A stretch of 64,000 nucleotides of DNA, taken from IMG/VR virus record IMGVR_UViG_3300028591_000077; one strand, given 5' to 3'. The stretch comes from a virus. Taxonomy: Duplodnaviria; Heunggongvirae; Uroviricota; Caudoviricetes. The notes beneath the pieces were generated by a model. That model ran no database searches. It saw only the letters and a program-made list of their open reading frames with translations, and was not told the origin of the DNA. Both the position numbers and the translations under genes were made by a program. Positions 5,733 to 19,187 of the stretch are shown here, one piece after another (the stretch's first letter is position 1; each line of letters begins with the position of its first letter).

Positions 5733-5808
<76 letters not shown>

Positions 5809-5812
5809 TTAT

Positions 5813-5889: not shown

Positions 5890-6030
5890 AAAAGATTATA
5901 AAATACTTACCAAAGTATTGTATAATATAATAGCTTCAAAGTGCTGGAAGTTGTGGCACGCGTATTGAGAGGTTGCAAACTCGAAAATATGAGGGGTTAG
6001 GTAGGGTCTGACTGAAGCTTCCATTTACAT

Positions 6031-6116
6031 TGCGGTAGAGTGGAACGGACAATTATAAACCATCCGCGGCTCATAACCGATGGGATACCGGGTTCGACTC
6101 CCGAGTACCGCAACCA
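6031..6116 (+). tRNA. tRNA-fMet(CAT)-like, enlarged D loop
   Basis: Ends CCGCAACCA as initiator tRNAs do; loop CT CAT AA. Confidence 0.7.
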
Positions 6117-6210
6117 GAGGCGTGTTGTTTGTCAATTTAAACCTTACCTCGCGCACAAGGCGTAAAAATTGAAGGCTTAAGATGTTGTGCCAGAACAAAG
6201 CATCATCCAT

Positions 6211-6286
6211 GGCCGAGTAGCTCAGCGGTTAGAGCAGGGAGCTCATACCTCCAAGATCGGTGGTCCGAATCCACTCTCGGCTACCA
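6211..6286 (+). tRNA. tRNA-Met(CAT), probably elongator
   Basis: Loop CT CAT AC, ends GGCTACCA, T-loop TCCGAAT. Confidence 0.85.
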
Positions 6287-6363
6287 GGATATATATTCAA
6301 TTTCGCCAAGACTAGAGCACAGCCATTCATAAGGGCTGTGTAGGAGAATCCCTTGGCAACCAT

Positions 6364-6437
6364 GCAGACGTAATTCAATGGTAGAATGCCACCTTGCCAT
6401 GGTGGCTACACGGGTCCGATTCCCGCCATCTGCTCCA
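6364..6437 (+). tRNA. tRNA-Gly(GCC)
   Basis: U73 CCA, T-loop TCCGATT. Confidence 0.85.
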
Positions 6438-6557
6438 TCAATAGAATTAACAAAGGCCACGTTAATTTCAGTGAAACTCTGATAGTGGAAGACAGAATCT
6501 AAAAAGTAGCCGTCGAGCAAGCAGGCTCCACAATAAATAAACATCGCTTGCCACCAT

Positions 6558-6632
6558 GCGGGTATCGTCCAACGGTCAGGGCCTCTGCCTTCCAAGCAGA
6601 AGATACCGGTTCGATTCCGGCTACCCGCTCCA
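6558..6632 (+). tRNA. tRNA-Gly(TCC)
   Basis: Cloverleaf, TCCA end. Confidence 0.95.
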
Positions 6633-6704
6633 CCAGGACAGACAGAGATTAGGTTCTCTGTGAGGTTCTACGGCTGGACAAATCGATAAAACCAGCCAAT
6701 ACTT

Positions 6705-6778
6705 GCGGGAATAGGACAGTGGTAGTCCATCTGCTTGCCATGCAGACTACGCGGGTTCGATTCCCGTTTCCTGCTCCA
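6705..6778 (+). tRNA. tRNA-Gly(GCC)
   Basis: Cloverleaf, TCCA end. Confidence 0.9.
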
Positions 6779-6784
6779 TTAAAT

Positions 6785-6862
6785 CGTCCCGTAGACGAAC
6801 TGGTTAAAGTCATCACCCTTTCAAGGTGAAATCTGGGGGTTCGAGTCCCCTCGGGATGACCA
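6785..6862 (+). tRNA. tRNA-Glu(TTC)
   Basis: Cloverleaf, CCA. Confidence 0.9.
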
Positions 6863-6874
6863 TTTAAAATTTTA

Positions 6875-7101
6875 GAGCCTATACTTATTTCTAGGACTGA
6901 AAATCCCCGTGTCCCTAGTTCGAATCTAGGCTCTCCCACCATAGGAGCCAATACTTATTTCGGATTCCGCGGTAGCTTAAAAGGTAAAGCCCCCGATCTA
7001 TAATCGGGAGATTGTCGGTTCAAGTCCGACCCATGGCATTGTGAGTTTGGCCACTTTGGGAGAGTAGCTCAGTTGGTAGAGCAGGAGTTAATAGTTAGGC
7101 C
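6875..7101 (+). ncRNA. Bulged-stem element 5: circularly permuted tRNA-Phe(GAA) with a nested element
   Basis: 3' half with CCA at 6894-6941, 5' half GGGAGAG+D arm at 7058-7085; outer GCCTA/TAGGC stem. Confidence 0.9.
6945..7052 (+). ncRNA. Nested bulged-stem element 5b enclosing a tRNA-Ile(TAT)-like cloverleaf (about 6966-7038)
   Basis: GA GCCAA T ACT TATTTC ... AGT TTGGC C; CCCGA-TC TAT AA-TCGGG anticodon arm, T arm, no CCA. Confidence 0.8.
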
Positions 7102-7243
7102 TTTTTTATTAAAAAATATCGTATTATATAAAGAAACGAAAAATATTCGCTAAATTATTTGGTACTTGTCTTCCTTAGCGGTACGACTTAATCCAGGGAT
7201 ATTCAGGAGATATTACCGATACAAAGATTAAGCAAGAAAGATT

Positions 7244-7323
7244 TAGACTAAACTTATTTCAAAGCCTTAGTCCCACAGGGACTATATAAAAATGAAGATC
7301 AAAATTGGCCGCACAGTTAGTCA
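7244..7323 (+). ncRNA. Bulged-stem element 6
   Basis: GACTA A ACT TATTTC ... AGT TAGTC. Confidence 0.7.
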
Positions 7324-7456
7324 AAGTATTGTTCTAAAATTGTTTATAATACGCCTGAGTGGTACGACTTGTTGGAACTTATAATTAAAACCTCGTTCGC
7401 GATGCAGCTAACAAAGAGCGTCAATTAATTATAAGGAAAGATAAGCAAAAAGGGCA

Positions 7457-7529
7457 GAAACTACACTTATTTCAAATTTTTCTAATCTACACTTACCATA
7501 GAAAAATTGGCCACGACAATAGTTAGTTC
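7457..7529 (+). ncRNA. Bulged-stem element 7
   Basis: GA AACTA C ACT TATTTC ... AGT TAGTT C. Confidence 0.7.
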
Positions 7530-7562
7530 GTATTTCATAAAAAATATCGTATAATATTTATA

Positions 7563-7645
7563 GAGCTTATGCTTATTTCAAATGGTTATAGAAGGTTCGA
7601 TTCCTTCACCGTCCGCCAATCCCGGACAGTGATATTAGCTAGGCC
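7563..7645 (+). ncRNA. Bulged-stem element 8: permuted T-arm/acceptor mini-helix with GCCA
   Basis: GAAGG-TTCGATT-CCTTC-ACCGTCC-G-CCA then GGACAGT; GCTTA/TAGGC stem. Confidence 0.75.
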
Positions 7646-7735
7646 AAAAAAATATTTGTAAAAAAATTAAAAAAATATTTACAAAACAAAAAAAGTATTG
7701 TATAATATTTATGTAAGCAAGTTAAGCAAGCTTGC

Positions 7736-8342
7736 TTCGAGTGTTCTTTGAGAAAGGATTTATGTTGAACCATGTGCAGAGGGATTACCTCCTTGCATGG
7801 AAGTTGGCTAAATAACGCGATAAATTGTGGGATACTGCAATGTAAGCTAAGACCTGTATTGAAAGATACGGGTATTCCTGTCAAAACGTGATCATTGACA
7901 GGCTAAGCTGATTGTGCAACATGTTATGGTACACAAAGCAATTCTGTCTAGGCTCGTCCGATAAGAGGCTCTGGGAGCAATCTCATCCCGCCTGTGGAAT
8001 TAAGCCTGAGAAACTTAGTTCCCGGCATCTCAACCTAAGGATAGTGACGTTTTGAAGCGGCGAAAGCCGTGTATAAGAGCTGACAGAAGTACGAGTAGCC
8101 GTATGACGTCGTTCGATCAAGTATAAAATTGAAGAATGTGATTAATTTCTTCCTTGCTGAAGTTCGGTGAAAGTTGGGGGACATCAATTCCCTCTATTGT
8201 TCGGTGCTAGTCACCAATTTGTGAAGACCAAGGTCGCGCCTTGGCTCTCAGCCACAAGTTAATATGTGCGAATATGTGGAATAATAAGTGTTGTAAGATG
8301 AATAAAAGTCTCGCTTAGATCATTTCTCAAAGAATACTCGAA
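7736..8342 (+). ncRNA. About 600-nt structured ncRNA (ROOL-like candidate)
   Basis: 20-bp terminal helix 7736-7755/8323-8342, promoter immediately upstream, many internal hairpins, no ORF. Confidence 0.65.
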
Positions 8343-8393
8343 AAATAAAATGCTAAATTAATTAGACAAATGTGTCAGAAGGAGAGCAAAAGT

Positions 8394-8480
8394 ATGTTAA
8401 GATTAGCTTCTATCAACGTTAAGCCTATTAGCATTCTCAAACCAGTTTGGGAAAATTTTGACATGCTTGTAGCTCAGTAA
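8394..8480 (+). CDS. Leader peptide 3 (28 aa, MLRLASINVKPISILKPVWENFDMLVAQ)
   Basis: AAGGAG RBS after GCTAAATT; I/V/K/P/W-rich core matches the downstream tRNAs. Confidence 0.8.
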   Translation: MLRLASINVKPISILKPVWENFDMLVAQ

Positions 8481-8518
8481 AGACCGTAAGTCCGATTAAA
8501 TCAATTAGACAAAAGATC

Positions 8519-8553
8519 CCCGCAGAGACTACAAGCTCTGCGGGTTTTATTTT
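8519..8553 (+). terminator. Attenuator terminator 3
   Basis: CCCGCAGAG-ACTACAAG-CTCTGCGGG-TTTTATTTT; 8525-8536 pairs with leader 3 end 8465-8475. Confidence 0.85.
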
Positions 8554-8631
8554 CGGGAAGTAGCGTAGCTTGGTTATCGCGCCTGATTTGGGATCAGGAG
8601 ATCAAGGGTTCGAATCCCTTCTTCCCGACCA
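8554..8631 (+). tRNA. tRNA-Pro(TGG)
   Basis: Canonical cloverleaf. Confidence 0.95.
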
Positions 8632-8632
8632 A

Positions 8633-8747
8633 GAGCTCATACTTATTTCTAGCATTGGGAGCCGGTGTTTGCAGGTTCGAGTCCTGCCTCCCCGACCATT
8701 ATCGGGGAGTAGGCAAATTGGTAAAGCCGCTGTTTAATAGTTGAGCC
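8633..8747 (+). ncRNA. Bulged-stem element 9: circularly permuted tRNA-Pro(TGG)
   Basis: 3' half with CCA at 8652-8698, 5' half CGGGGAG+D arm at 8703-8732; GCTCA/TGAGC stem. Confidence 0.9.
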
Positions 8748-8767
8748 TTAAAAAATCTATTATTATA

Positions 8768-8829
8768 GAGCCTATACTTATTTCCGCCAAGAGGCAATTT
8801 CCTTTTAAGAAATCTATGATAGTTAGGCC
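8768..8829 (+). ncRNA. Bulged-stem element 10 with a Lys(TTT) anticodon stem-loop
   Basis: ATTTC-CT TTT AA-GAAAT at 8797-8813. Confidence 0.8.
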
Positions 8830-8835
8830 ATTAAT

Positions 8836-8911
8836 GGGCTCTTAGCTCAGTTGGGAGAGCATCTCCTTGACGTGGAGAGGGTCGTCAGTTCGAGCCTGGC
8901 AGAGCCCACCA
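8836..8911 (+). tRNA. tRNA-Val(GAC)
   Basis: Cloverleaf, CCA. Confidence 0.95.
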
Positions 8912-9011
8912 TTAATAGAGAATATTAGGAGAAGGAAAACTCCATAAACCCTTATAGCTTCGTTCTTAGCCAGACGTAGACTAAGATAGAGTTAAACTAA
9001 TGATACAATAT

Positions 9012-9088
9012 CCGGAGTTAGTTCAGTTTGGTAGAACACTTGATTTGGGATCAAGGGGTCGTGAGTTCGAATCTCACATTTCGGACCA
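9012..9088 (+). tRNA. tRNA-Pro(TGG)
   Basis: Cloverleaf, CCA. Confidence 0.9.
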
Positions 9089-9092
9089 ATAT

Positions 9093-9169
9093 TGGAGCGT
9101 AGCTCAGTCGGTCAGAGCGCTGTGCTGATAACGCAGAGGTCGCCGGTTCGATCCCGGCCGCTCCAACCA
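9093..9169 (+). tRNA. tRNA-Ile(GAT)
   Basis: Cloverleaf, CCA. Confidence 0.95.
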
Positions 9170-9173
9170 ATAT

Positions 9174-9247
9174 AGGGGCTTGGTATAGTGGCCGTGCCTT
9201 GGTCTCCAAAACCAATGAGGTGAGTTCGATTCTTACAGCCCCTGCCA
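9174..9247 (+). tRNA. tRNA-Trp(CCA)
   Basis: A1:U72, G73, loop CT CCA AA. Confidence 0.9.
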
Positions 9248-9252
9248 AACAT

Positions 9253-9329
9253 ACTCCCTTAGCTCAGCTGGCCAGAGCAACTGACTCTTAATCAGTGGGT
9301 CCAGGGTTCGAATCCCTGAGGGAGTACCA
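9253..9329 (+). tRNA. tRNA-Lys(CTT)
   Basis: Cloverleaf, CCA. Confidence 0.95.
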
Positions 9330-9351
9330 ATTTATGAGGAGGTCGATATTA

Positions 9352-9555
9352 ATGAGATTCAATTGTAGAGTAATCTGGGTTGATCCTGTTAAGAATCGTC
9401 GTCAGTTCACAGACGTCGGTCCAAGTTATGCAATCTTCATCGCCAAAAAGAAAGTTAGCGAAGGAATGCAAGACGTAACGATTCAAGTAACTGGCGAAGA
9501 CGGCGACGACCCTTCTGACTGTAGTTGGCCACCAATTGATGCTGAGGTGGCGTAA
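9352..9555 (+). CDS. Hypothetical protein (start revised from the track)
   Basis: AGGAGG RBS before ATG 9352; the longer ORF start overlaps a tRNA. Confidence 0.6.
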   Translation: MRFNCRVIWVDPVKNRRQFTDVGPSYAIFIAKKKVSEGMQDVTIQVTGEDGDDPSDCSWPPIDAEVA

Positions 9556-9589
9556 ATAAACAATAAGCATTAGAAATGGAGAAAAAGCT

Positions 9590-9658
9590 ATGATGAAAAT
9601 GACACTAAAACTCAAATCCAAAAAACTCAAACGTTTTCGTTGTGGCTTAATTGCTTAG
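9590..9658 (+). CDS. Leader peptide 4 (22 aa, MMKMTLKLKSKKLKRFRCGLIA)
   Basis: GGAG RBS; six AAA codons plus CTA, CTC x2, TCC. Confidence 0.8.
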   Translation: MMKMTLKLKSKKLKRFRCGLIA

Positions 9659-9692
9659 GATTCAACGTCATCTTGATTATGAATGTATTGAC

Positions 9693-9728
9693 TGCCGAGG
9701 TAATTAAGCTTATCTCGGCATTTATTAT
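9693..9728 (+). terminator. Attenuator terminator 4
   Basis: TGCCGAG...CTCGGCA-TTTATT; 9698-9709 pairs with leader 4 end 9645-9656. Confidence 0.75.
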
Positions 9729-9803
9729 GCGTCCATAGCCAAGCGGTATGGCAATCGGCTTTTAACCGATGTACCGGGGGTTCGAATCCTCCTGGGCGCA
9801 CCA
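9729..9803 (+). tRNA. tRNA-Lys(TTT)
   Basis: Cloverleaf, CCA. Confidence 0.9.
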
Positions 9804-9807
9804 TAAT

Positions 9808-9886
9808 GCGCGCTTAGCTCAGTTGGTTTTAGAGCATACGACTTTTAATCGTAGGGTCCGGAGTTCGAATCTCCGAGCGCGCACCA
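9808..9886 (+). tRNA. tRNA-Lys(TTT)
   Basis: Cloverleaf, CCA. Confidence 0.95.
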
Positions 9887-10003
9887 ATTAGCTATCTCAT
9901 CTTACAATTACGATACACGTGGCGGACAGGAATCACAAAAAGCGGGTTCTTTTGTAAGATTGGATATATTAATACTGTATAATATATAGAAGGAGTTGCT
10001 AAA

Positions 10004-10183
10004 ATGGAAAAAGAAAAAGTAAATTATTGTTTACCAATTGATTTCCCGATGTATGACATGTGTCATTGTTGTGCTGATTGCGCTACGCTGTGCGCTCGTA
10101 AAAATGCGCCTGTAGAACGTATCTGTACTATGAGTGATTTCAGCTCTATATGCTCTAGTTATACAGCAAAAGAAGAAAAGTAG
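10004..10183 (+). CDS. Small Cys-rich protein (59 aa)
   Basis: AAGGAG RBS, promoter upstream, CHCCADC..C motif; not in the ORF track. Confidence 0.6.
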   Translation: MEKEKVNYCLPIDFPMYDMCHCCADCATLCARKNAPVERICTMSDFSSICSSYTAKEEK

Positions 10184-10184
10184 T

Positions 10185-10529
10185 ATGTTTGACAACGATT
10201 TTGATGATGATTTAGATGAGTTATTGCTTAATGCAAAACCTAAATTGCCTGACCCTTACTTTGACCCAAAATATCCTGAGATTAAAGAGGGTGTTAAGTT
10301 TACACCAATTGAACGCAGTATAGAATATTCTGTCTATACAATCAAAGACGCTCATGCAGTAGACAACAAAGTTAAGGTAAGCGAAGTTATCTATACTTGG
10401 GGCACAGGCTATTATTCAAGGCTAAATAAAACGCCATTTGAATGCGAGCTAGACAGAGACGATTTGTGCAGTTCGCATAGCCCTGCTTGCCAAGGCAAAA
10501 AGAAAACATTTAATTGGAGACAGAACTAG
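10185..10529 (+). CDS. Hypothetical protein
   Basis: ATG directly after the previous stop; 3' end overlaps tRNA-Ser(CGA). Confidence 0.55.
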   Translation: MFDNDFDDDLDELLLNAKPKLPDPYFDPKYPEIKEGVKFTPIERSIEYSVYTIKDAHAVDNKVKVSEVIYTWGTGYYSRLNKTPFECELDRDDLCSSHSPACQGKKKTFNWRQN

Positions 10530-10603
10530 GAGCGGCCTCCTAGCCTGCCTCGAAAGCAGAGTGTTCAGAAATGAATGGGGATCGACACCTCCTGTCTCCG
10601 CCA
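10516..10603 (+). tRNA. tRNA-Ser(CGA), 8/4 acceptor/T-stem type
   Basis: GGAGACAG/CTGTCTCC 8 bp, 4-bp T stem, G73 CCA, long variable arm. Confidence 0.75.
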
Positions 10604-10637
10604 TCATCGAAAACGTCATTGAAGAAAACTTGACGAT

Positions 10638-10725
10638 GGAGGGTAATCCTGGACAGTCTGGGGCACGCCTGGAAAGCGTTGCGTAGGAGTAATCCTATCT
10701 GAGGCGGCATCAGTGCCCTCCGCCA
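10638..10725 (+). tRNA. tRNA-Ser(GGA), 8/4 type
   Basis: GGAGGGTA/TGCCCTCC 8 bp, CTGA/TCAG T stem, G73 CCA. Confidence 0.75.
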
Positions 10726-10734
10726 AATAATTAT

Positions 10735-10818
10735 GCCCGAGTGGTGGAATGGTAGACACGCTGCGCTTAGAACGCAGTGCCGCAAGGTGTGCAGGTTCAA
10801 GTCCTGTCTCGGGTACCA
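10735..10818 (+). tRNA. tRNA-Leu(TAG)
   Basis: Long variable arm, CCA. Confidence 0.95.
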
Positions 10819-10870
10819 TAACCAAATTGGATACTGTTTGTCGAAAGGTAACCAAATTGGATACATATAT

Positions 10871-11261
10871 GGGCTCGTACTGGTTTCGATTGGTATTTGA
10901 TGTTTATAACTACAGCAAGCTGATAACTTACTATCAAACAAAAACAAACGACAAAACTTTAAACCCTGCATTTATTGCCTCCAACAGATTCGTTGGTGCT
11001 CGCGCCTAATTTAAGGCCATAGTAGTCGAGAAGTAAAACTGAGTTAGATTGGTCGAGTTTAACTCTTTATAATCAGACCTCGGTCAAGAGAACATTAGCT
11101 TTATTAGATATCTTGATTTAAATCAATAAATAAGCTATCTGCGCGCCCCGTTGTGTTTGAAAAGGAGCGGACAGAGAAATATTCATGAACACATAAAGCT
11201 GTAATTGACGTTATAGGGGTTTGGTATCAAGACCGGGGTTCGACTCCCCGCGGGTCCACCA
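10871..11261 (+). ncRNA. ssrA: tmRNA
   Basis: GGGCTCG...GGTTTCGA 5' end, G3:U acceptor, T arm and CCA 3' end, tag frame ...KTNDKTLNPAFIASNRFVGARA*. Confidence 0.9.
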
Positions 11262-11266
11262 TATAT

Positions 11267-11353
11267 GCGCGAGTGGCGGAACTGGTAGACGCGCCAGCCT
11301 AAGGAGCTGGTGCCCGAAAGGGCGTGTGGGTTCGAGTCCCACCTTGCGCACCA
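11267..11353 (+). tRNA. tRNA-Leu(AAG)
   Basis: Loop CT AAG GA, long variable arm. Confidence 0.9.
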
Positions 11354-11369
11354 TTATTAGGAGAAAACT

Positions 11370-11672
11370 ATGAATCTTCAAGAATTAATCGAACATGGCT
11401 ATGTAGAAAAAGTTGAAACTGAATCAACTTATTTGGGCGCTGGCTATAAAGTTTATGTAAAATTGCATAATTATTCTATTGGTAGAATTACCATTGACAT
11501 CGGTATTGATGAAAATCTTTCTGATGCGATTACTTTAATTAATAAAATGATTGAAGTTGATGAAGAAATTGGTAAGAATAAAAAGCCAAAAGAAAAGCAT
11601 ACAATCAGAAAAGCAACTGATGAAGAAATAAAAAAACTTCTTGATGATTCAAAACAAGTTTTTAAAGATTAA
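11370..11672 (+). CDS. Hypothetical protein
   Basis: AGGAG RBS, 100 aa. Confidence 0.75.
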   Translation: MNLQELIEHGYVEKVETESTYLGAGYKVYVKLHNYSIGRITIDIGIDENLSDAITLINKMIEVDEEIGKNKKPKEKHTIRKATDEEIKKLLDDSKQVFKD

Positions 11673-11690
11673 TATCGTATATTATTACAT

Positions 11691-11787
11691 AGGGGATTAC
11701 GATAATTGGCAAGTCCGTCGGTCTTCAAAACCGATCAATCCGGCTCCAACCCGGAGAGCGCGGGTTCGATTCCTGCATCCCCTGCCA
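11691..11787 (+). tRNA. UGA-decoding tRNA (anticodon TCA), Trp-like acceptor with long variable arm
   Basis: AGGGGAT/ATCCCCT-G-CCA, TCGGT-CT TCA AA-ACCGA, TCCGG/CCGGA variable stem. Confidence 0.85.
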
Positions 11788-11790
11788 GTA

Positions 11791-11847
11791 GAGCCTATGC
11801 TTATTTCAAAAACATCAGACTGCAACTCCGATTAATGAAGCTAGGCC
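11791..11847 (+). ncRNA. Bulged-stem element 11 with a Cys(GCA) anticodon stem-loop
   Basis: ATCAGA-CT GCA AC-TCCGAT; loop identical to that of tRNA-Cys at 19780. Confidence 0.8.
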
Positions 11848-11872
11848 ATTATTTTTAGAAAGGCGATAATAT

Positions 11873-12541
11873 ATGAATAAAAGAGTAAAAACGTTTCTAT
11901 TTGCAATTTTTGCCGGTATTGCCATTGGCGTCGGCGGATTGCTTTTTATTTTATCAAAAACATATATTCCAGGTAATTGGGGTAATATTGTCGGTTCGTT
12001 GTTATTCCCGGTTGGATTAATTACAATTTGCTATTGTAAATTTAATTTATATACTGGAAAAATTGGCATTGCTCCAAATAAAGGTGTAAATACTAATGAT
12101 TTGAATGTATTTGAGTGGCTAGCTTGGATTCTATTAGGCAATATTGTCGGAGCGTTTGCCTTTGGATTGTTAGTTTATCCATTCACTTTGCTTGGAGGAA
12201 GCTTCGCCGATACCGTCCATGCTATTGGGTTAGCAAGGGAAACCATGGATCCGATTTCAATGGCTGGAACATCTGTCTTATGCGGAATCTTAGTTTATAT
12301 TGCGGTTTATTTCTTCAATAAGTCTGATGAGTACTTCGGCAAAGTCGTCGGTGTCTTGGTTCCTATTGCGTTCTTCGTATTAGCCGGATTTCAGCACTGC
12401 GTTGCCAATATGTTCTATATGGCGGCTTCTGGTAGTTGGACATTGGCGTCTACTCAAGCACTAGTAGGTTGTATCTTAGGTAATTCTTTCGGTGGATTGC
12501 TTGCCAATTTGCCGGTTGTATATTTTAAAGGAGCTAAATAA
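11873..12541 (+). CDS. Formate/nitrite transporter (FNT, FocA/NirC family)
   Basis: FPVGL...LYTG and AGFQHCVANMFY motifs, multiple TM helices. Confidence 0.9.
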   Translation: MNKRVKTFLFAIFAGIAIGVGGLLFILSKTYIPGNWGNIVGSLLFPVGLITICYCKFNLYTGKIGIAPNKGVNTNDLNVFEWLAWILLGNIVGAFAFGLLVYPFTLLGGSFADTVHAIGLARETMDPISMAGTSVLCGILVYIAVYFFNKSDEYFGKVVGVLVPIAFFVLAGFQHCVANMFYMAASGSWTLASTQALVGCILGNSFGGLLANLPVVYFKGAK

Positions 12542-12789
12542 TGCAAAGATTACAAGTAAAGTATTGCAAAGGCGAAAAAGAGCTTAATGACTTCTTAATG
12601 ACCCTTGAGTTAGGTGCTGGAGAAATTAGTAAGCCACGTTTGCAAGCCATCAATTACGTTGCTGAAGTGCAGGGCAGCGGCCAAGAGTATGAAACAGAAA
12701 ATGGCACAAAGTCAACAATCAGCATGGGAAGCACAGTAATTGCAGCAGTTCAATATTTCATCAGTATTCCAGAAGAATCACACGAATAA
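12541..12789 (+). CDS. Hypothetical protein
   Basis: TAATG coupling to the upstream gene. Confidence 0.7.
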   Translation: MQRLQVKYCKGEKELNDFLMTLELGAGEISKPRLQAINYVAEVQGSGQEYETENGTKSTISMGSTVIAAVQYFISIPEESHE

Positions 12790-12827
12790 TGTGTGATTTT
12801 TTTATTTTTAATGTATAATATATAGAT

Positions 12828-13037
12828 ATGCACGAACTATTGGTTGAGATGTTGATTGTCGGTATTATTGGAATAATCAGCATAGGTGCTGGTTTATGGA
12901 TATTACTTAGAAATTGGCATGAGAAAGATTGGGAAAAACTTAGGATATTCTTTGTAGCCGGAGTAATATTCATGACATTTATGACATCGATATTCGAAAT
13001 CATATGGTTTTGTATGTATATCGGCTTACCAGTTTAA
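12828..13037 (+). CDS. Small two-TM membrane protein
   Basis: Two hydrophobic segments, promoter upstream. Confidence 0.6.
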   Translation: MHELLVEMLIVGIIGIISIGAGLWILLRNWHEKDWEKLRIFFVAGVIFMTFMTSIFEIIWFCMYIGLPV

Positions 13038-13051
13038 AGGAGAATGGAATT

Positions 13052-13168
13052 ATGATAACTATATTGGCAGTTTATGGTATCGGACTAGGGATTTTGAACA
13101 TTTTAACCCTTGGAATTCTATTCTATTTGAAATTTGGTCAAAAATTATTGGCTAAATTAAAACGGTAA
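13052..13168 (+). CDS. Small membrane peptide (38 aa)
   Basis: AAGGAG RBS, hydrophobic. Confidence 0.5.
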   Translation: MITILAVYGIGLGILNILTLGILFYLKFGQKLLAKLKR

Positions 13169-13182
13169 AATATTTACCATTA

Positions 13183-13263
13183 CATAGAAAAAAAGCACAA
13201 CCACAGTGATGTGGCGTCGCAAAGCTATAGGGCCTTGGAGGAAGGCAGCCAGTTGCTTCTGTG
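13183..13263 (+). promoter_or_regulatory. c-di-GMP-I (GEMM) riboswitch
   Basis: GCACAA-CCACA GTGA TGTGG-CGTCGCAAAGCTATAGGGCC...GGCAGCCAGTTGC matches the GEMM core; lies in the 5' UTR of the operon. Confidence 0.8.
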
Positions 13264-13305
13264 AGTTAATCATGGAAGTTTTTTATTTATAAGAAGGAGA
13301 AAACT

Positions 13306-13923
13306 ATGAAATTAAGAAACAAATTAGCAGCTATCACAGCTGCAGCAATGTTAGCATTTACTGGCGTTGGTTTTGCTGCATGGACATTTGCTAATGAAAA
13401 ATCAGCTAATGTTGGTGGAGACAATGTTGTTACTTGTGCAGTTGAAACAAAGAACTTAGTTATTGATGAAGGTTATACTAAATTATATTTAATTTTTGAT
13501 GCGCCAGCAGCTGGAACTACTGGTTCATTAAAGGCTGGTGAAGGTATTTTCTTTGCAACAGATAAAGAGCCAGATGCTGAAACCGGATTATATACTAAAG
13601 TTACATCTCTTACATTAACTGGTTCATTTGAACATACAGATAATGATGCTCATTACAACCATGCAGTAAGTTATACTTTTGATTGCACACCTACTAATAC
13701 TTTAAGTGCTACTTATGTAACACAAACAGCTGCTGGAAGCTTCGATGCAAATGTAACAGGAGCAACTTCAACTTTTACAGATGTTTCAACTGTTTACACA
13801 CTTCCAACATTTGATTATACTGCTGCGGTTAAAGCTTACAATCATGCGTCAGAAATGTCTGCTATGATTACTTCTTTAAATGACTCAGAAGTATCATTTG
13901 CATTTACGTTTAATATTGACTAA
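13306..13923 (+). CDS. Secreted protein with SipW-type signal peptide (TasA/camelysin-like)
   Basis: MKLRNK...GVGFAAWTF N-terminus; adjacent to signal peptidase. Confidence 0.6.
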   Translation: MKLRNKLAAITAAAMLAFTGVGFAAWTFANEKSANVGGDNVVTCAVETKNLVIDEGYTKLYLIFDAPAAGTTGSLKAGEGIFFATDKEPDAETGLYTKVTSLTLTGSFEHTDNDAHYNHAVSYTFDCTPTNTLSATYVTQTAAGSFDANVTGATSTFTDVSTVYTLPTFDYTAAVKAYNHASEMSAMITSLNDSEVSFAFTFNID

Positions 13924-13938
13924 TTAAGAGGTTAGTTT

Positions 13939-14757
13939 ATGAATTCAATTACGATTATAACAATAGTCGTAGTTGCACTCTTAACTGTAGTTATCTTTGG
14001 ATTAGCTTGGCTAGGTTATAGCTCTTGTTTAAAAAGCTATAAGATGGAAGTTGACCAAGGAAAGCATGATGCTGAAATATTCAAAGAGTATCATTCAAAA
14101 AAGAAAAACAAAGGAGGACTAATTGGACTTATTGGTTCATACTTAGCCCTCCTTGCTTTATCTGGGCTATTCATAACTGGAATAGTTTATAAAGCTAACG
14201 GTGAAAACTTCACCATCAATAATCAAACTGCCCTTGTGATTAAATCAGGCTCTATGTCTGAATTCTATGATGATGAACTTGCCGAACAATATCAATTACT
14301 ACATTATGATCCATCACTTCAATTTAGTGTAGGAGATATCTGTGTTTTTGAAAAAGTATCAGATGATACTAAGTTAGCTAAGGGTGACGTCTACGGCTAT
14401 AAATATAAAGATATTATTATCACACACAGATTAATAGATGAAACAGAAGACGGATTCTATAGATTTAGGGGCGATAATAATCCAGTTGCAGATCAATTAC
14501 TAATAAAACGAGAAAATATTGTTTATCATTATACTGGTAATAAGGTTCCTGGACTTGGTGCTTTTGTTTTATATGCTCAATCATATTTTGGTATGTGGTC
14601 AATGGCTGGCATTGTAGGCATAACTATTAGCTCTGAAGTGGTCTATCATAAAATAGATAAAATCAATAAAGAGCGTAATGAGCTTCTTGATCCTGGGTTC
14701 AAGTTAGAGCCTCCAAAACAAAAAGAAAGAAAGCGAGGTAAGAAGCATGAAAAGTAA
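13939..14757 (+). CDS. Signal peptidase I, SipW-like (S26)
   Basis: VIKSGSMS, GDI, ITHR, FRGDNN motifs, TM segments. Confidence 0.85.
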   Translation: MNSITIITIVVVALLTVVIFGLAWLGYSSCLKSYKMEVDQGKHDAEIFKEYHSKKKNKGGLIGLIGSYLALLALSGLFITGIVYKANGENFTINNQTALVIKSGSMSEFYDDELAEQYQLLHYDPSLQFSVGDICVFEKVSDDTKLAKGDVYGYKYKDIIITHRLIDETEDGFYRFRGDNNPVADQLLIKRENIVYHYTGNKVPGLGAFVLYAQSYFGMWSMAGIVGITISSEVVYHKIDKINKERNELLDPGFKLEPPKQKERKRGKKHEK

Positions 14758-15685
14758 ATTTTTATTGTTTCTAGCCGGTTTATTCGCTATTACTGCTTTA
14801 TTTGGGACGACTTATTCTGCTTGGGCTTTTACAAATACTACTGATGTAACCAATAATGTTCAAGTTGAAGTTCCTACTTGGACATTTGGTGACCAAGGTC
14901 TTGCCAAAATCGAAAATATTTCTGGTTTAAGCTATTTAACAGCTGAAAAAGAAGAAACTATTACGCAGGGAAGCACTGAGGCAGTTAGATTCACAAATAC
15001 CGGTGGAACTCATGCAAGAGACCATATCTTCTATGTCGATTTAGACCAAGATTATGATTTATACGATATAGCTACTTGTAAGATTGAATTTGATTACTAT
15101 CATACTTATAAGAGAGAACAAAAAGATAAAGGTTTCCCAAAACTTCAATTATTCCATGATAGTATTGGCAGAGGAGCGGCTCAAGGCGGCGATGATACAA
15201 TAACTGAAATCGCACCTTATGTTGTTACAAACATCGATGAAGATTGGTGGCATTTGGAATATTATATCACTTCTATGTGCCCAACAATTGCCGACCATCA
15301 AGATAAGCCACAAAATAACTATAAAGTAAATCGTATTAAATTTGCTGATAGAGGAGTTTATGACTACGCTGATGTAACTGGCTGGTTTGTTATGGACAAT
15401 TTAATGATTACAAATGAACCAGGGGCTAGATTAGGTCTATTTAATAGAACTGCCGGCGATACAGTTGGAAAATTCTTCTGGTTTAAGGTTGCTTGGTCTG
15501 GTGATCTACATTCTTGTATTCTTACAACAAGTGACCCAAGTTTGGCTGTTTGGGATGATGAATCTACAAAGAGCCCATTCTATGTTAAACTATTAGCAAA
15601 AGGTCAAGTTGTTATTACAGCTACCCTTGAAATTGGAAGCAATCACGAGATATTCACAATTTCTAATACAATTACAATAAATTAG
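14747..15685 (+). CDS. Secreted protein with SipW-type signal peptide
   Basis: MKSK...GTTYSAWAF N-terminus. Confidence 0.6.
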   Translation: MKSKFLLFLAGLFAITALFGTTYSAWAFTNTTDVTNNVQVEVPTWTFGDQGLAKIENISGLSYLTAEKEETITQGSTEAVRFTNTGGTHARDHIFYVDLDQDYDLYDIATCKIEFDYYHTYKREQKDKGFPKLQLFHDSIGRGAAQGGDDTITEIAPYVVTNIDEDWWHLEYYITSMCPTIADHQDKPQNNYKVNRIKFADRGVYDYADVTGWFVMDNLMITNEPGARLGLFNRTAGDTVGKFFWFKVAWSGDLHSCILTTSDPSLAVWDDESTKSPFYVKLLAKGQVVITATLEIGSNHEIFTISNTITIN

Positions 15686-15699
15686 TTGTATAATATAAT

Positions 15700-15869
15700 G
15701 TAACAGCCACACATTGCCGCCGTGGTCGGAGGAGCGGATTGATCCCCGCTTAGTACTGGATAAGGGCGGGTCTAGCCAACCTGTGCACGAAATTCTGGAA
15801 ATACAAAAGGCGATCCATAATGCAAATGTTACAAATAAAAAGAGCTTATTAAGCTCTTTTTTAATTTTT
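15700..15869 (+). ncRNA. Unidentified structured small RNA plus terminator
   Basis: Own promoter, GTAACA/TGTTAC end pairing, GC-rich hairpins, AAAAAGAGC-TTATTAA-GCTCTTTTT terminator. Confidence 0.45.
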
Positions 15870-15888
15870 TTACTGTATAATAATATAG

Positions 15889-16160
15889 TTCCCCTGTGTC
15901 GGGGGTCCTGGTGTTAAAAAGTGGTCGTCATTGCCGGCCCGGCTGCCTCAGTAAGTCGCGGTTACTGATATAACCCGGTGTCCTTGCGGACTGTTTCCAG
16001 GAATAACGAGCGCGAGCCCACCTAGTCGGAGAGTCAGACTGCAACACCTGACGTTAAATCAATGTTCCTCCGTGAATAGGCAGTGGGAGAAGAGTAGGAT
16101 ACAAATGACAGCGTGCCCGCAGAAGAAACTAAGCCTTAAAAACGTCGAAAGACGTTTTTT
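15889..16160 (+). ncRNA. Unidentified GC-rich structured RNA plus terminator
   Basis: Own -10 TATAAT, non-coding, ends in AAAAACGTC-GAAA-GACGTTTTT. Confidence 0.45.
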
Positions 16161-16362
16161 ATAAACTGGCTAAAAATATTGGCTAAATTTAAGATGCAGA
16201 ATAATTTAATAAAAAAATCTGCTAAATTATGTGTACAATATGAAAAATATATTGTATAATATGTAAAGCAAGTGAGAACTTGCGAATTAATCTTTGAAAT
16301 GATCGCCTTCATGGCCGCTTCCTGTCCTAAGTATGACGTTAAACTGCTAGATAATTTAGGAG

Positions 16363-16584
16363 GTGCCTATGAAGTATTACGTGTTAGATGGCGAAGTCAA
16401 TCGCCAGCCTATCAAGGAGAAGATGTTTGCTACTAGGGCTGCTGCTGAAAAAGCAATGGAAGGTATTCTCTACAGAGAAAATCTCCAAGTCCAAGAAGAC
16501 AGATTCCCTTCTAAGCACACCGAAGAATTCGTGTGTGACAGATGCTCTAGATTCTTTGTTCGCAGAGTTGTCTACGGTGAATAA
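16363..16584 (+). CDS. Hypothetical protein
   Basis: AGGAGG RBS. Confidence 0.7.
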   Translation: MPMKYYVLDGEVNRQPIKEKMFATRAAAEKAMEGILYRENLQVQEDRFPSKHTEEFVCDRCSRFFVRRVVYGE

Positions 16585-16589
16585 TCTAT

Positions 16590-18300
16590 AGCAAAAGTCA
16601 AGGCACAAACTAATTGGCCCGGAAACGGGAAAATGGAACTTCCGAAATCGTGGAGGATACAGAGACTAGCGATCAAAGTTAGTTAGAAAGTCTTGACATT
16701 CTTAGGTAGTTTCGCGTAAGCGTTTCTATATTTAGAGCTTAAAAAGCACTCACAGAGGAAAACACCGAAATGTTCCAAAGGAGCTGACGAAATCCTAAGC
16801 GTCTATAAACAAAGTTTAGTGGAGCTTTATGAGCGAGTGGTTGATTACCCGACGTTCTACTCTATGGAGTATTAAGAGGTTGGTAGGGGTTAAAGTTGTC
16901 TACCTATAATCACAAAACAACTGCTTCCTTGGCTAATTTAGTCCGGTAGGAAGATTATCAAAAGAGAGGTTAAGCATTCCTCCCCACATTGTGGTATTCC
17001 TTAATTGGATTCCTTCGATAATTTATTATCACTTATTGCTTGGCGGGCTAGGCAACCGCCCTCCTTCTGTAACCTAGCTTATGCAGAACGGTATTTTCTT
17101 GGGATATACTTTAGGTATGTCCTCTGATGTGGCCGACCCAACGGGCAGTTTGAGGTGCGACTCCTCAATTGGTCTCAAAAAGCCCACGCAGCAGTAACCA
17201 GGGCTAATACTAAGACGTCAAAACGTGAAAGAGCCTGCTGCACATATAATTTAAATAAGCTTACGGGGGCTTGTCCGGAACGGGCGACGAGATGGTTAGA
17301 ACTACAGGTCAGGGAAGCAGCTGTAACACCATACGTTCCGCTAAGGTTTGTGAAAATATTAACCCAGGTGCTTGCTTGCAAGATGCTGACTAACACAAAC
17401 TATATGACCATGATTTAAATTATATCATTGACTGGGGAATTATTCCGAGCCCCTATGAATCAAAAAAGATCGGCGTCGAAGCAACGAAAGCCGCCATGTT
17501 GTCCGTGCACGGCGAGAGAAGGAACGGTCTAACGCAGCTGTCTACGGGATTGATTCGCCCGTATAGATGCCACTGAATACCCAAAGCTGGGGCTGCTGAT
17601 AAAGTAAAGGTCGACGACGTGGTTTGCGGTAGCTGACTTAGACTCAGCCTTAGACCAAGTATCGTGATCAGTCGACGGAAGCACGACAAAAACCGCATAT
17701 ATTGATATTATCTATAGCAATATAGTTAATATATCAACTTCCTGGCTTGAATAGGTGAGATGTTTGACTAGGAATTATTTGAACAGTTAGCAACTGGATA
17801 AAATTGCTCAATCTCACAAATAATCTTTTGAAAAGGAAGCTTAATTGCACCTATGGTTAGTCTTTCCATCCTTAAAAGGCATTAGTTCCACCATACACGG
17901 TACTGAATGTTGTTTGATTAGTAGTTACATATAAGGTTTGTTATAGACTACTTTGCGAGTTTCAATTAAAGGTGCCAACCACTAAGGTTGACAATAACCG
18001 CCTTATCATATGAAAATCAAGTCAGTGGACTACCTCCGCCTTATTAAGGTAATTAACCGAACTTAGTATTTGGTATAGATGAGTGACAAAGCCAGTAGAA
18101 CTCCAGGATGGGTTGATAAGTGTATATGAAAGAATGTGGCTAAGCACTTCCCGCTTATTGTAAAACTGACCCAAGTAAATCTAAGAACCTGCTAGTGAGG
18201 TTGTGCTCACATTTACTGTTTTATAAGCGATTGGCATTTAGTCTCTGTTGACATCGCTTACAGCAAGGGAACAAATCCGCAAAAACCCTAGCCACATATT
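16590..18300 (+). ncRNA. 1.7-kb non-coding structured region, probably several large ncRNAs
   Basis: No RBS-led ORF, GC higher than background, many hairpins. Confidence 0.5.
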
Positions 18301-18367
18301 TAGTTAAAAATTGGTAGAAATACCGTATAATATAATATAGAATAAAGCAAAGGAGCTTAAAAGTTAT

Positions 18368-18550
18368 ATGTTTGATATCTTAGTTAATGGTCAATTAGTC
18401 GCAATTGCAGCAGAAGGTGTTACAAAGATTTTTTGTAATGCTCTTATTAATGCACTTCCAAGTGAGATTTCAATTACCTCAAGAAGACATGTTGAACCTG
18501 CCCCACAAGCGCCTGAAACACCAGAAACTGAAGAAAGTTCTGCCAAGTAA
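18368..18550 (+). CDS. 60-aa protein, probable leader peptide 5
   Basis: AAGGAG RBS; TGT/AAT/AGT/GAG/TCA/AGA codons followed by a strand complementary to the downstream terminator. Confidence 0.65.
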   Translation: MFDILVNGQLVAIAAEGVTKIFCNALINALPSEISITSRRHVEPAPQAPETPETEESSAK

Positions 18551-18576
18551 TTAAATAAGTTAATAAGGCAAATTAA

Positions 18577-18612
18577 GGGTAGGTTCAATATAAAGAATCT
18601 ACCCTTTTATTT
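18577..18612 (+). terminator. Terminator 5 (possible attenuator)
   Basis: GGGTAGGTTC-AATATAAA-GAATCTACCC-TTTTATTT; 5' arm pairs with 18494-18503. Confidence 0.75.
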
Positions 18613-18675
18613 TAAGAAAACCATTTACAAATAATTATAAATATCGTATAATAGTAGTGTGAGAAATCACGAACT

Positions 18676-18752
18676 GCCCTGGTAGCTCAACTGGATAGAG
18701 CAACGGTCTTCTAAACCGTAGGTTACAGGTTCGAGTCCTGTCCAGGGCGCCA
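18676..18752 (+). tRNA. tRNA-Arg(TCT)
   Basis: Canonical cloverleaf. Confidence 0.95.
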
Positions 18753-18757
18753 TAATG

Positions 18758-18844
18758 GAGAGTTGGCCGAGCGGTCGAAGGCGTCTGTCTTGAAAACAGA
18801 AGTAGGGCAACCTACCTGGGGTTCGAATCCCTAACTCTCCGCCA
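18758..18844 (+). tRNA. tRNA-Ser(TGA)
   Basis: Long variable arm, GCCA end. Confidence 0.95.
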
Positions 18845-19042
18845 TCGTCTGTTCATCGAAAAAGAAAGGGAATCGCATCACCCAGACGTTAAATAACATC
18901 GATGACGTTACAGCGTTCGGATAAGCTGCGAAGAGAGCGAAGGAGCTTGTAGGTCGATAGCCGCTTAATGAGCGAATGCGGAATCGGGTAACATACTAGG
19001 TGTGGAAATTCGCAGAATCACCGAAGACCTACGATTATATAT

Positions 19043-19117
19043 GGGGCTATAGTCCAAAGGTTAGAACTCCCGACTGTTAATCGGAGAATCTGTGTTCGAG
19101 TCACAGTAGCCCCGCCA
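19043..19117 (+). tRNA. tRNA-Asn(GTT)
   Basis: Cloverleaf, GCCA end. Confidence 0.85.
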
Positions 19118-19120
19118 GAA

Positions 19121-19187
19121 GAACCTATGCTTATTTCTAGCTCATTGTGAGCGTCAAACTGGTAATTTGAAGGTATTTAGCTAGGTC
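19121..19187 (+). ncRNA. Bulged-stem element 12 with a Thr(GGT) anticodon stem-loop
   Basis: ACCTA/TAGGT stem; TCAAA-CT GGT AA-TTTGA at 19154-19170. Confidence 0.8.

What the first reader, a model, noticed from the sequence alone, without database searches (positions are those of the whole stretch)
8768..19187. Elements reduced to bare anticodon stem-loops: Lys(UUU), Cys(GCA), Thr(GGU)
Element 10 holds ATTTC-CTTTTAA-GAAAT, element 11 ATCAGA-CTGCAAC-TCCGAT and element 12 TCAAA-CTGGTAA-TTTGA. All are 7-nt C32-U33 loops; the first two equal the loops of this phage's own tRNA-Lys and tRNA-Cys. Element 1 has a similar CTAGTTA loop. Retaining only the anticodon arm points to the anticodon as the functional part, for example a nuclease decoy or bait.
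Basis: partly seen in the sequence, partly recalled or inferred. Interest (0 to 1): 0.72.

Follow-up and report, generated by a model that had tools for sequence, protein, structure and literature searches.

The report
Phage RNAs displaying tRNA anticodon arms
Three small RNA genes in the tRNA cluster of a sheep-rumen giant phage mount copies of the anticodon half of tRNAs on a shared RNA "handle", which may let the phage soak up proteins that read or cut anticodons, though this is untested.

Summary
Two loops equal those of the phage's own tRNA-Lys(UUU) and tRNA-Cys(GCA).

"Bare anticodon stem-loops" is only partly right:
- Each hairpin is the cargo of one member of a 13-copy RNA family. All members share a handle: an 8-bp helix with a bulged U, then invariant UUAUUUC.
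- Elements 10 and 12 also keep a trimmed D-arm hairpin and linkers at the tRNA 8-9, 26 and variable-loop positions, so they are tRNA lower halves.
- Only element 11 is an anticodon arm alone, and its stem has an A·C mismatch.

Across 129 unique family members from related phage contigs:
- 25 of 48 short-cargo hairpins carry a loop identical to a real anticodon loop, against 1% of background hairpins.
- CUUUUAA (Lys) sits on at least 7 different covarying stems.
- Close homologs of elements 10 and 12 keep the stem but change anticodon positions 33-35.

The family matches nothing in Rfam 15 or in the papers I could search. It lacks the Ro-binding motif, and complete relatives have no Ro60 gene. 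A TerD-fold protein gene is always adjacent.

A decoy for anticodon-reading host factors fits best but is untested. Earlier scan notes report similar tRNA-Lys arm mimics on other handles in other phages.

The parts
8767..8829 (+). Element 10.
- 5' handle: 8767-8784 (AGAGCCUAUACUUAUUUC)
- D-arm-like hairpin: 8786-8795 (GCC AAGA GGC), then A8796
- Anticodon-arm mimic: 8797-8813, loop CUUUUAA at 8802-8808
- Linker: 8814-8820
- 3' handle: 8821-8829 (AGUUAGGCC)
   Evidence: Sequence read. Exact match. Handle model R1 scores 52.7 bits, E 4e-10. The loop equals the tRNA-Lys(UUU) loops.
11790..11847 (+). Element 11.
- 5' handle: 11790-11807
- A-rich linker: 11808-11813, with no D hairpin
- Anticodon-arm mimic: 11814-11832, loop CUGCAAC at 11820-11826, A·C mismatch in the stem
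- Linker: 11833-11838
- 3' handle: 11839-11847
It lies 2 nt after the tRNA-SeC(UCA)-like gene and just before the ribosome-binding site of a formate/nitrite-transporter gene.
   Evidence: R1 scores 52.7 bits. An identical cargo is in rumen metagenome contig L350.
19120..19187 (+). Element 12.
- 5' handle: 19120-19137
- UA: 19138-19139
- Trimmed D arm: 19140-19152, then G19153
- Anticodon-arm mimic: 19154-19170, loop CUGGUAA at 19159-19165
- Variable-loop-like AGGUAUUU: 19171-19178
- 3' handle: 19179-19187
It lies between two tRNA-Asn genes, 2 nt after the first and 6 nt before the second.
   Evidence: R1 scores 47.8 bits. The tRNA model aligns to positions 1-56. Homologs are L149:4872 and L434:806.
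133..200 (+). Element 1. Handle with stem GCCUG/CAGGC. The cargo hairpin is UACCCG-CUAGUUA-CGGGUG (153-171). Its loop is not a canonical anticodon loop because position 37 is U.
   Evidence: (36.1 bits).
223..8746 (+). The nine other family members in the window (R1 match spans; 3' ends of elements 3 and 4 from the handle-complement scan):
- 223-281
- 364-418 (element 2)
- 4910-5035 (element 3): permuted tRNA-like, Val UAC loop
- 6873-7100 (element 4): permuted tRNA-Phe-like
- 6943-7054 (element 5): nested in element 4
- 7244-7324
- 7455-7531
- 7561-7647 (element 8): T-arm/acceptor minihelix, U·G wobble in the handle
- 8631-8746 (element 9): permuted tRNA-like
   Evidence: A sub-threshold YrlA match lies at 8663-8733.
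521..2476 (+). A 651-aa protein gene that is always preceded by one to four handle elements in relatives. It has an N-terminal helical part with no clear match and a C-terminal TerD-fold domain. It is a candidate handle partner by synteny only.
   Evidence: synteny; fold.

Best explanation
Elements 10, 11 and 12 are members of an undescribed family of phage small RNAs built from two modules.

Module 1 is a constant handle. It is the helix GCCUA-[U]-RCU / AGY-UAGGC, flanked by invariant GA at the 5' side and C at the 3' side, and followed by the invariant single strand UUAUUUC.

Module 2 is an exchangeable tRNA part. In these three elements it is the lower limb of a tRNA:
- Element 10: trimmed D arm plus anticodon arm.
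- Element 12: trimmed D arm plus anticodon arm plus variable-loop linker.
- Element 11: anticodon arm only.
They have no T arm, acceptor stem or CCA, so they cannot be charged.

Shown here:
- The RNA-level, strand-specific structure of the handle.
- Selection on anticodon-like loops across covarying stems.
- Descent of elements 10 and 12 from a tRNA-Lys(UUU)-type arm. Element 12 has switched positions 34-35 to GG.

Inferred:
- The RNAs are cut out of the tRNA transcripts, or made from their own promoters.
- They act as non-chargeable competitors for a factor that recognises the anticodon arm. The most likely target is a host anticodon nuclease or other tRNA-targeting defence enzyme, with tRNA-Lys(UUU) as the commonest bait.
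- The handle gives stability or processing, or docks a protein, possibly the adjacent TerD-fold protein.
For: Handle:
- The covariance model finds exactly 13 copies, all on the + strand and all within the tRNA region.
- The R:Y pair was left free by the search pattern and is complementary in 41/41 IMG/VR matches.
- An 8-nt complementary tail follows 192 of 501 occurrences of the 5' motif. The control tail follows 10, of which 8 are cases where it equals the true tail.
- Handles with one non-Watson-Crick pair have 8 G·U, 0 A·C and 2 others; one of those two (window element 8) is, read by hand, a U·G handle. This indicates RNA pairing on this strand.

Cargo:
- Exact anticodon loops are in 25/48 hairpins against 1.0% of background.
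- CUUUUAA sits on at least 7 stems, and all 5 stem pairs covary.
- Across the Lys-lineage elements (17 by my hand tally), the 6 loop substitutions all fall at positions 33-35. None falls at 32 or 36-38.
- UA, a D hairpin, position 26 and a GGUA-type linker are retained.
- 7 Lys-type elements abut tRNA-Lys gene clusters.

Context:
- Elements start 1-4 nt after tRNA CCA ends.
- AriB of the PARIS defence system recognises the tRNA-Lys anticodon stem-loop, and phage T5 counters it with a tRNA (PMC11464382).
- No matching family in Rfam 15.
- Four full-text searches found no paper describing such RNAs.
Against: - There is no direct evidence that the small RNAs accumulate. The only RNA data are metatranscriptome contigs, which cannot show ends or levels.
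- Predicted folding energies are not better than shuffled sequence (z -0.3 to -1.2).
- The phage's own tRNA-Lys genes keep the canonical loop, so a nuclease that binds the decoy would also see them.
- 26 of 74 short cargos have no hairpin with a 7-nt loop, and 13 of 48 hairpins are not anticodon-like. So the family is not only about anticodons.
- At the syntenic site before the TerD-fold gene, the cargo differs from phage to phage. That could mean the cargo matters little.
- No host or host defence system is known for this uncultured phage.
Confidence: 0.45

Rival explanations
1. Adaptor RNA of the Y-RNA type. The handle binds a dedicated protein, with the adjacent 651-aa TerD-fold protein as the candidate. 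The tRNA part recruits a tRNA-binding enzyme or substrate to that protein. The RNA would be a tether rather than a passive decoy.
For: - Every relative has handle elements directly upstream of the protein gene on the same strand. This holds in 16 distinct handle-seeded loci and in 8/8 loci found through the protein alone.
- The layout mirrors rsr-yrlA (PMC4201824).
- Permuted family members give sub-threshold YrlA matches.
Against: - The protein has no recognisable RNA-binding domain. It has only a TerD-fold C-terminal domain and an unmatched helical N-terminal part.
- The synteny may be plain conserved gene order.
- Most elements, including 10-12, lie kilobases from the gene.
Confidence: 0.2
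2. Decaying tRNA remnants. The handle is the functional unit, for example a processing or stability module or a selfish repeat. The anticodon arms are leftovers of tRNA genes that shrink step by step, from whole permuted tRNA to lower half to arm to nothing.
For: - A full reduction series exists within one family.
- Element 11 has lost the D hairpin that its homolog L148:9849 keeps, and it has a mismatched stem.
- Anticodon triplets differ between close homologs.
- Many cargos have no tRNA feature.
Against: - Loops stay identical to real anticodon loops on many diverged, compensated stems.
- Loop changes avoid positions 32 and 36-38.
- D loops are trimmed in a uniform way while the linkers are kept.
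Confidence: 0.15
3. Elements that act in cis or on translation. They could be punctuation or RNase entry sites for maturing the tRNA operon, or leader elements. Alternatively, the anticodon arms could bind ribosomal sites or codon-like sequences to tune expression.
For: - Elements sit 1-10 nt from tRNA ends.
- Element 11 lies in the leader of a transporter gene.
- Element 2 types lie ahead of the TerD-fold gene, with a terminator-like hairpin in between.
Against: - Punctuation needs neither exact anticodon loops nor an invariant UUAUUUC.
- Some elements appear to have their own -10 box, for example TATAAT 6 nt before element 8.
- No complement to the invariant strand occurs in ROOL, tmRNA or elsewhere in the window.
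Confidence: 0.1
4. True YrlA/Y RNA family members that bind host or phage Ro60 (Rsr).
For: Modular stem plus tRNA-like design. YrlA model matches of 26 bits at 8663-8733 and 20 bits at 7012-7082.
Against: - The handle lacks GNCGAAN0-1G (PMC4201824; read from the sequence).
- No TROVE gene in four complete relatives.
- Scores are far below the 69-bit cut-off.
- Elements 10-12 lack the T/D/acceptor head that defines YrlA.
Confidence: 0.05

Closest known systems
YrlA-type Y RNAs of bacteria and phages (Rfam RF02553; Chen et al. 2014, PMC4201824)
   Same: - A modular small RNA: a terminal stem made from the 5' and 3' ends, plus a tRNA-derived module.
- Often several copies beside one protein gene.
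- Permuted family members (elements 3, 4, 9) have the YrlA topology and give weak YrlA matches.
   Different: - The handle sequence and shape differ, and the GNCGAAN0-1G Ro motif is absent.
- Complete relatives have no Ro60/TROVE gene.
- YrlA has no anticodon arm. Elements 10-12 carry exactly that arm and lack YrlA's T/D/acceptor head.
Phage tRNAs that counter anticodon nucleases (T5 tRNA-Lys against PARIS AriB, PMC11464382; anticodon-loop variants, PMC10264068)
   Same: - Encoded in phage tRNA arrays.
- tRNA-Lys(UUU) is the commonest identity.
- The anticodon stem-loop is the part the nuclease recognises.
   Different: Those are complete, chargeable tRNAs that replace cleaved host tRNA. These elements cannot be charged and could act only by binding. 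No such RNA decoy has been reported in the papers I could search.
Ordinary tRNA genes (Rfam RF00005)
   Same: - The anticodon loop is identical.
- The 5-bp anticodon stem is present.
- In elements 10 and 12, the D stem and the linkers at positions 8-9, 26 and 44-48 are present.
   Different: - No T arm, acceptor stem or CCA.
- The D loop is cut to 3-5 nt.
- ARAGORN calls nothing here, and the tRNA model scores 15 bits or nothing.
Small stable RNAs of the phage T4 tRNA cluster (species 1 and 2; from my own knowledge, not checked here)
   Same: Non-tRNA small RNAs that are co-encoded and co-processed with phage tRNAs and have no known function.

Membership tests
tRNA (RF00005) | Complete cloverleaf with acceptor stem, T arm and a score above the gathering cut-off | tested here: not met
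   ARAGORN calls no gene at the three sites. The tRNA model scores 15.2 bits against a 29-bit cut-off for element 12 and gives no match for element 10.
YrlA / Y RNA (RF02553) | tRNA-like head made of T arm, D arm and closed acceptor stem | tested here: not met
   Elements 10-12 have no T-loop motif. Only elements 4 and 9 give 20-26 bits against a 69-bit cut-off.
YrlA / Y RNA (RF02553) | Ro/Rsr-binding motif GNCGAAN0-1G in the 5' strand of the stem | tested here: not met
   The motif is quoted in PMC4201824. The handle 5' strand is AGAGCCUAURCUUAUUUC in all 45 aligned members.
YrlA / Y RNA (RF02553) | Encoded near a Ro60/TROVE protein gene | tested here: not met
   PF05731 is absent from 5 related phage records, 4 of them at least 96% complete, and the control genomes were detected. 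The 30 window ORFs I scanned have none. The window's own whole genome is not held.
Handle RNA family defined here (model R1) | 8-bp helix with one bulged nucleotide and compensatory changes, invariant GA...CUUAUUUC...AG...C, cargo inserted between the strands | tested here: met
   - Elements 10, 11 and 12 score 47.8-52.7 bits.
- The free R:Y pair is complementary in 41/41 matches.
- There are 8 G·U and no A·C.
- The pair counts are complementary by construction, because selection required it.
Anticodon stem-loop mimic | 5-bp stem, 7-nt loop with U33 and purine 37, loop identical to a real tRNA of the same phages | tested here: met
   Elements 10 and 11 are identical to the phage's Lys and Cys loops. 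Element 12 has the signature but matches none of the 91 distinct loops collected. Element 11's stem has one A·C mismatch.
Anticodon-nuclease decoy or inhibitor | Binds or blocks PrrC, RloC, AriB, VapC or a similar enzyme | not testable with these tools
   This needs binding, cleavage and infection assays. No host or defence system is known for this phage.
Split or permuted tRNA genes spliced at a bulge-helix-bulge motif (archaea, red algae; PMC3978253) | 3-nt bulges flanking a 4-bp helix at the junction, and a product that is a complete tRNA | tested here: not met
   The handle has a single 1-nt bulge in an 8-bp helix. Elements 10-12 contain no upper half to join.

The most novel reading that the evidence does not exclude
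The phage clade carries a toolkit of programmable baits. One handle, perhaps read by the TerD-fold protein, presents interchangeable anticodon arms (Lys UUU, Pro UGG, Cys GCA, and switched forms such as GGU and GCU) that bind and neutralise host anticodon nucleases or other anticodon-reading defence enzymes. Changes at positions 34-35 would track an arms race. This would be the first RNA-decoy counter-defence aimed at tRNA-cutting immunity.
Probability: 0.25. Interest if true: 0.88.

Novelty: new variant of a known kind. Interest (0 to 1): 0.72.

Why it matters
Phage tRNA arrays are now thought to answer host enzymes that cut tRNAs, but only whole replacement tRNAs are known as the answer. A conserved RNA family that shows isolated anticodon arms, most often that of tRNA-Lys(UUU), the classic nuclease target, points to a second strategy: binding competitors.

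The family also gives a compact, natural scaffold for presenting tRNA parts. The hypothesis is directly testable with 55-70-nt RNAs in laboratory strains. In addition, it explains several odd "tRNA" calls in such phage genomes.

Tried and rejected
- **Expression.** Four public runs (three rumen metatranscriptomes, one DNA) were laid on 1-20000, but only as contigs. They show the region is present in RNA libraries. They show nothing about ends, levels or joints of the small elements.
- **Folding energy.** It is no better than shuffled sequence for any element.
- **Trans partner for the invariant UUAUUUC.** No complement occurs on the + strand of the window, in ROOL, in tmRNA or in the 16.6-18.7 kb RNA-rich stretch.
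- **Ro60 link.** No TROVE gene in relatives. RtcB is in only 1 of 5.
- **Cellular homes.** The scan of bacterial and archaeal genomes gave chance matches, apart from one 19.8-kb contig of a Bacteroidales MAG that looks like phage DNA.
- **Integron attC-like DNA site.** Rejected. The GTT of the attC core is not conserved because that position covaries A:U/G:C. Wobble pairs are G·U only, which fits RNA on this strand.
- **K-turn.** Rejected because the pair next to the bulge is Watson-Crick and covaries.
- **Bulge-helix-bulge splicing.** Rejected because of the bulge size.
- **Adjacent protein.** Pfam, PHROGs and PDB sequence searches, single-sequence and profile, gave nothing beyond a TerD-fold C-terminal domain.
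- **RNA-repair genes.** None among the 30 window ORFs I scanned.


Full report
**Setting.** The window is part of an uncultured giant phage found in sheep and cattle gut samples. Its first 22 kb hold:
- 42 tRNA calls and a tmRNA
- a ROOL RNA
- a c-di-GMP-I riboswitch

A covariance model of the repeat (R1, built from alignment A1) finds exactly 13 copies. All are on the + strand and all lie between 132 and 19189. Elements 10, 11 and 12 are the copies at 8767-8829, 11790-11847 and 19120-19187.

**The observation.** The three quoted strings are present once each, at the stated places. The loops CTTTTAA and CTGCAAC are identical to those of the phage's two tRNA-Lys(UUU) genes and its tRNA-Cys(GCA) gene. 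CTGGTAA differs at position 32 from the phage's tRNA-Thr(GGU) loop, ATGGTAA.

The word "bare" does not hold for two of the three:
- Element 10 reads C-GCC-AAGA-GGC-A before the arm.
- Element 12 reads UA-GCUCA-UUG-UGAGC-G before the arm and AGGUA after it.

These pieces correspond to tRNA positions 8-9, a D arm with a shortened loop, position 26 and the variable loop. Rfam's tRNA model aligns element 12 to its positions 1-56 at a sub-threshold 15.2 bits. The invariant UUAUUUC lies where the acceptor 5' strand would be. Element 11 has only an A-rich linker before the arm, and its stem has an A·C mismatch. Its homolog in a related phage (L148:9849) keeps a small hairpin before the arm and has a perfect stem. 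Element 1's loop, CUAGUUA, lacks a purine at position 37 and matches no tRNA loop.

**The handle.** All copies share this layout:
- 5' (U)AGA
- a 5-bp stem strand
- one bulged base, mostly U
- R-C-U
- UAUUUC
- the cargo
- A-G-Y
- the complementary 5 nt
- C

Evidence that this is a real RNA structure:
- The R:Y pair was left free by the search pattern and is complementary in 41 of 41 matches in viral contigs.
- Of 501 occurrences of the 5' motif in fetched loci, 192 are followed within 330 nt by the exact 8-nt complementary tail. Only 10 are followed by a control tail, and 8 of those are cases where the control equals the true tail.
- The stem takes many forms, including GCCUA, GCCAA, ACCAA, GCUCA, GCUUG and ACCUG, each with its complement.
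- Handles with one non-Watson-Crick pair show 8 G·U, no A·C and 2 others. One of those two (window element 8) is, read by hand, a U·G handle whose true tail the script overwrote. This fits RNA pairing on this strand and argues against a DNA hairpin.

The pair counts are complementary by construction, because my selection required it, so I do not lean on them.

**The cargos.** In the window and in relatives the handle carries four kinds of cargo:
- whole circularly permuted tRNA-like bodies (elements 3, 4, 9)
- T-arm plus acceptor minihelices (element 8)
- tRNA lower halves
- plain hairpins

Element 5 is nested in the acceptor loop of element 4. The same nesting recurs in L076.

**Are the loops selected?** I gathered 129 unique family members from IMG/VR and metagenome contigs.
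- 74 have cargos of 46 nt or less.
- 48 of these have a hairpin with at least 4 bp and a 7-nt loop.
- 25 of the 48 loops are identical to an anticodon loop of one of 594 tRNAs predicted in the same loci. The figure for 22,469 background hairpins in those loci is 1.0%.
- The U33/purine-37 signature is present in 35/48, against 17.7% of background.

The commonest loops are:

| Loop | tRNA type | Unique elements | Different stems |
|---|---|---|---|
| CUUUUAA | Lys UUU | 12 | at least 7 |
| UUUGGGA / UUUGGGU | Pro UGG type | 9 | 6 |
| CUGCAAA / CUGCAAC | Cys GCA | 5, plus element 11 | 4 |

In an alignment of 14 lower-half elements (A2), all five anticodon-stem pairs show changes on both sides and 94% of cells are paired.

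**What the direct homologs show.**
- Element 12 shares its D arm, its stem TCAAA/UUUGA and its AGGUA linker with L434:806, whose loop is CUUUUAA, and with L149:4872, whose loop is CAUUUAA. Element 12 is therefore a Lys-type arm whose positions 34-35 changed from UU to GG.
- Element 10 shares its hairpin and stem with L054:2312, whose loop is CUGCUAA.
- L192:1994 shares the stem of two Lys-type elements but reads CUUGUAA.

Across the Lys-lineage elements (17 by my hand tally), the six loop substitutions all lie at positions 33-35. None lies at 32, 36, 37 or 38. By my own arithmetic, (3/7)^6 is about 0.006 if changes fell evenly. Each switched loop is again a plausible anticodon loop of a tRNA that reads ANN codons. 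This looks like switching within a constrained frame rather than free drift, but the numbers are small.

**Position.** Elements start 1-4 nt after the CCA of the preceding tRNA, or after a -10-like box. Several end 6-10 nt before the next tRNA. So RNase P and the 3'-end trimming enzymes could release them; this is inference. Seven Lys-type elements flank tRNA-Lys clusters in relatives. In this window the Lys cluster (9253-9886) has no such neighbour. Element 12, now sitting between two tRNA-Asn genes, is the copy that has changed its triplet.

**Partner protein.**
- Homologs of the 651-aa protein at 521-2476 lie directly downstream of one to four handle elements in 16 distinct handle-seeded loci.
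- The same holds in all 8 loci that I fetched through the protein alone.
- The cargo at that syntenic site differs from phage to phage. It can be a Pro-, Cys-, Ser- or Lys-like arm, a minihelix or a whole permuted tRNA.
- The protein has no Pfam family.
- An AlphaFold model (pLDDT 77) matches TerD structures over its C-terminal ~200 residues, for example 2kxt at E 3e-5 and TM 0.60. The helical N-terminal part matches nothing clear.

This is association only. Nothing shows that the protein binds RNA.

**Comparison with known families.**
- Rfam 15 has no family for the elements.
- The nearest is YrlA. Permuted family members score 20-26 bits against a 69-bit cut-off.
- The handle lacks the Rsr motif GNCGAAN0-1G.
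- Four complete relatives have no TROVE gene.
- YrlA has no anticodon arm.
- Full-text searches found phage tRNAs that replace nuclease-cut host tRNAs, for example T5 tRNA-Lys against PARIS, where AriB recognises the anticodon stem-loop. They found no report of anticodon-arm decoy RNAs or of this handle.
- Earlier notes of this scan describe the same family on this genome. They also describe tRNA-Lys arm mimics on different handles in other phages. I did not test the notes on other phages.

**Verdict.** The structure and the selection on anticodon-like loops are well supported. The function is inferred. I favour non-chargeable competitors for anticodon-arm-reading host factors, with tRNA-cutting defence enzymes as the most likely targets. 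The handle would then serve processing, stability or protein docking.

The main rivals are:
- a Y-RNA-like tether that works with the TerD-fold protein
- decaying tRNA remnants inside a handle that matters for its own sake
- a role in cis in tRNA-operon maturation

Noticed in passing
window 7746-8331: A full-length ROOL RNA (210 bits) sits inside the element and tRNA cluster. It is strongly represented in rumen RNA libraries: contig depth 116-255, against about 42 in the DNA run.
   Followed up: partly
window 16676-18676: About 2 kb with no ORF over 90 aa. Summed contig depth is 160-290 in RNA libraries, against 7-27 in the DNA run. No Rfam family matches. This is a candidate large or abundant non-coding RNA.
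   Followed up: partly
window 13184-13260: A c-di-GMP-I riboswitch aptamer (46.8 bits) lies in a phage, just upstream of the ORF at 13306-13923, which has no Pfam family.
   Followed up: no
window 10871-11261 and 11691-11787: A phage-encoded tmRNA, and a long-armed tRNA with anticodon UCA that ARAGORN calls tRNA-SeC.
   Followed up: no
window 4904-4979 and 6965-7039: ARAGORN's tRNA-Val(UAC) and second tRNA-Ile(UAU) are not ordinary tRNA genes. They are cargos of handle elements 3 and 5. Annotation pipelines will miscall such loci.
   Followed up: partly
window 521-2476; L438-L445 at 3001-4980: A 651-aa protein with a TerD-fold C-terminal domain is preceded by one to four handle elements in every relative examined. 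The cargo of the nearest element differs from phage to phage.
   Followed up: partly
G001:C1:2925-4013 (record of L012/L054): One complete relative has an RtcB RNA ligase gene between handle elements. The other four records have none.
   Followed up: no
window 11873-12541, 24266-25456, 54335-55180, 58277-59899, 60522-61319: Metabolic genes in the phage: a formate/nitrite transporter, an F420-0:gamma-glutamyl-ligase-like protein, thymidylate synthase, formate-tetrahydrofolate ligase and FolD. Together they form a one-carbon/folate set.
   Followed up: no
L253 (CALCHR010000198.1, 19.8 kb): A contig binned into a Bacteroidales MAG carries three handle elements in a row. It is probably phage DNA, and it may hint at the host.
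   Followed up: no
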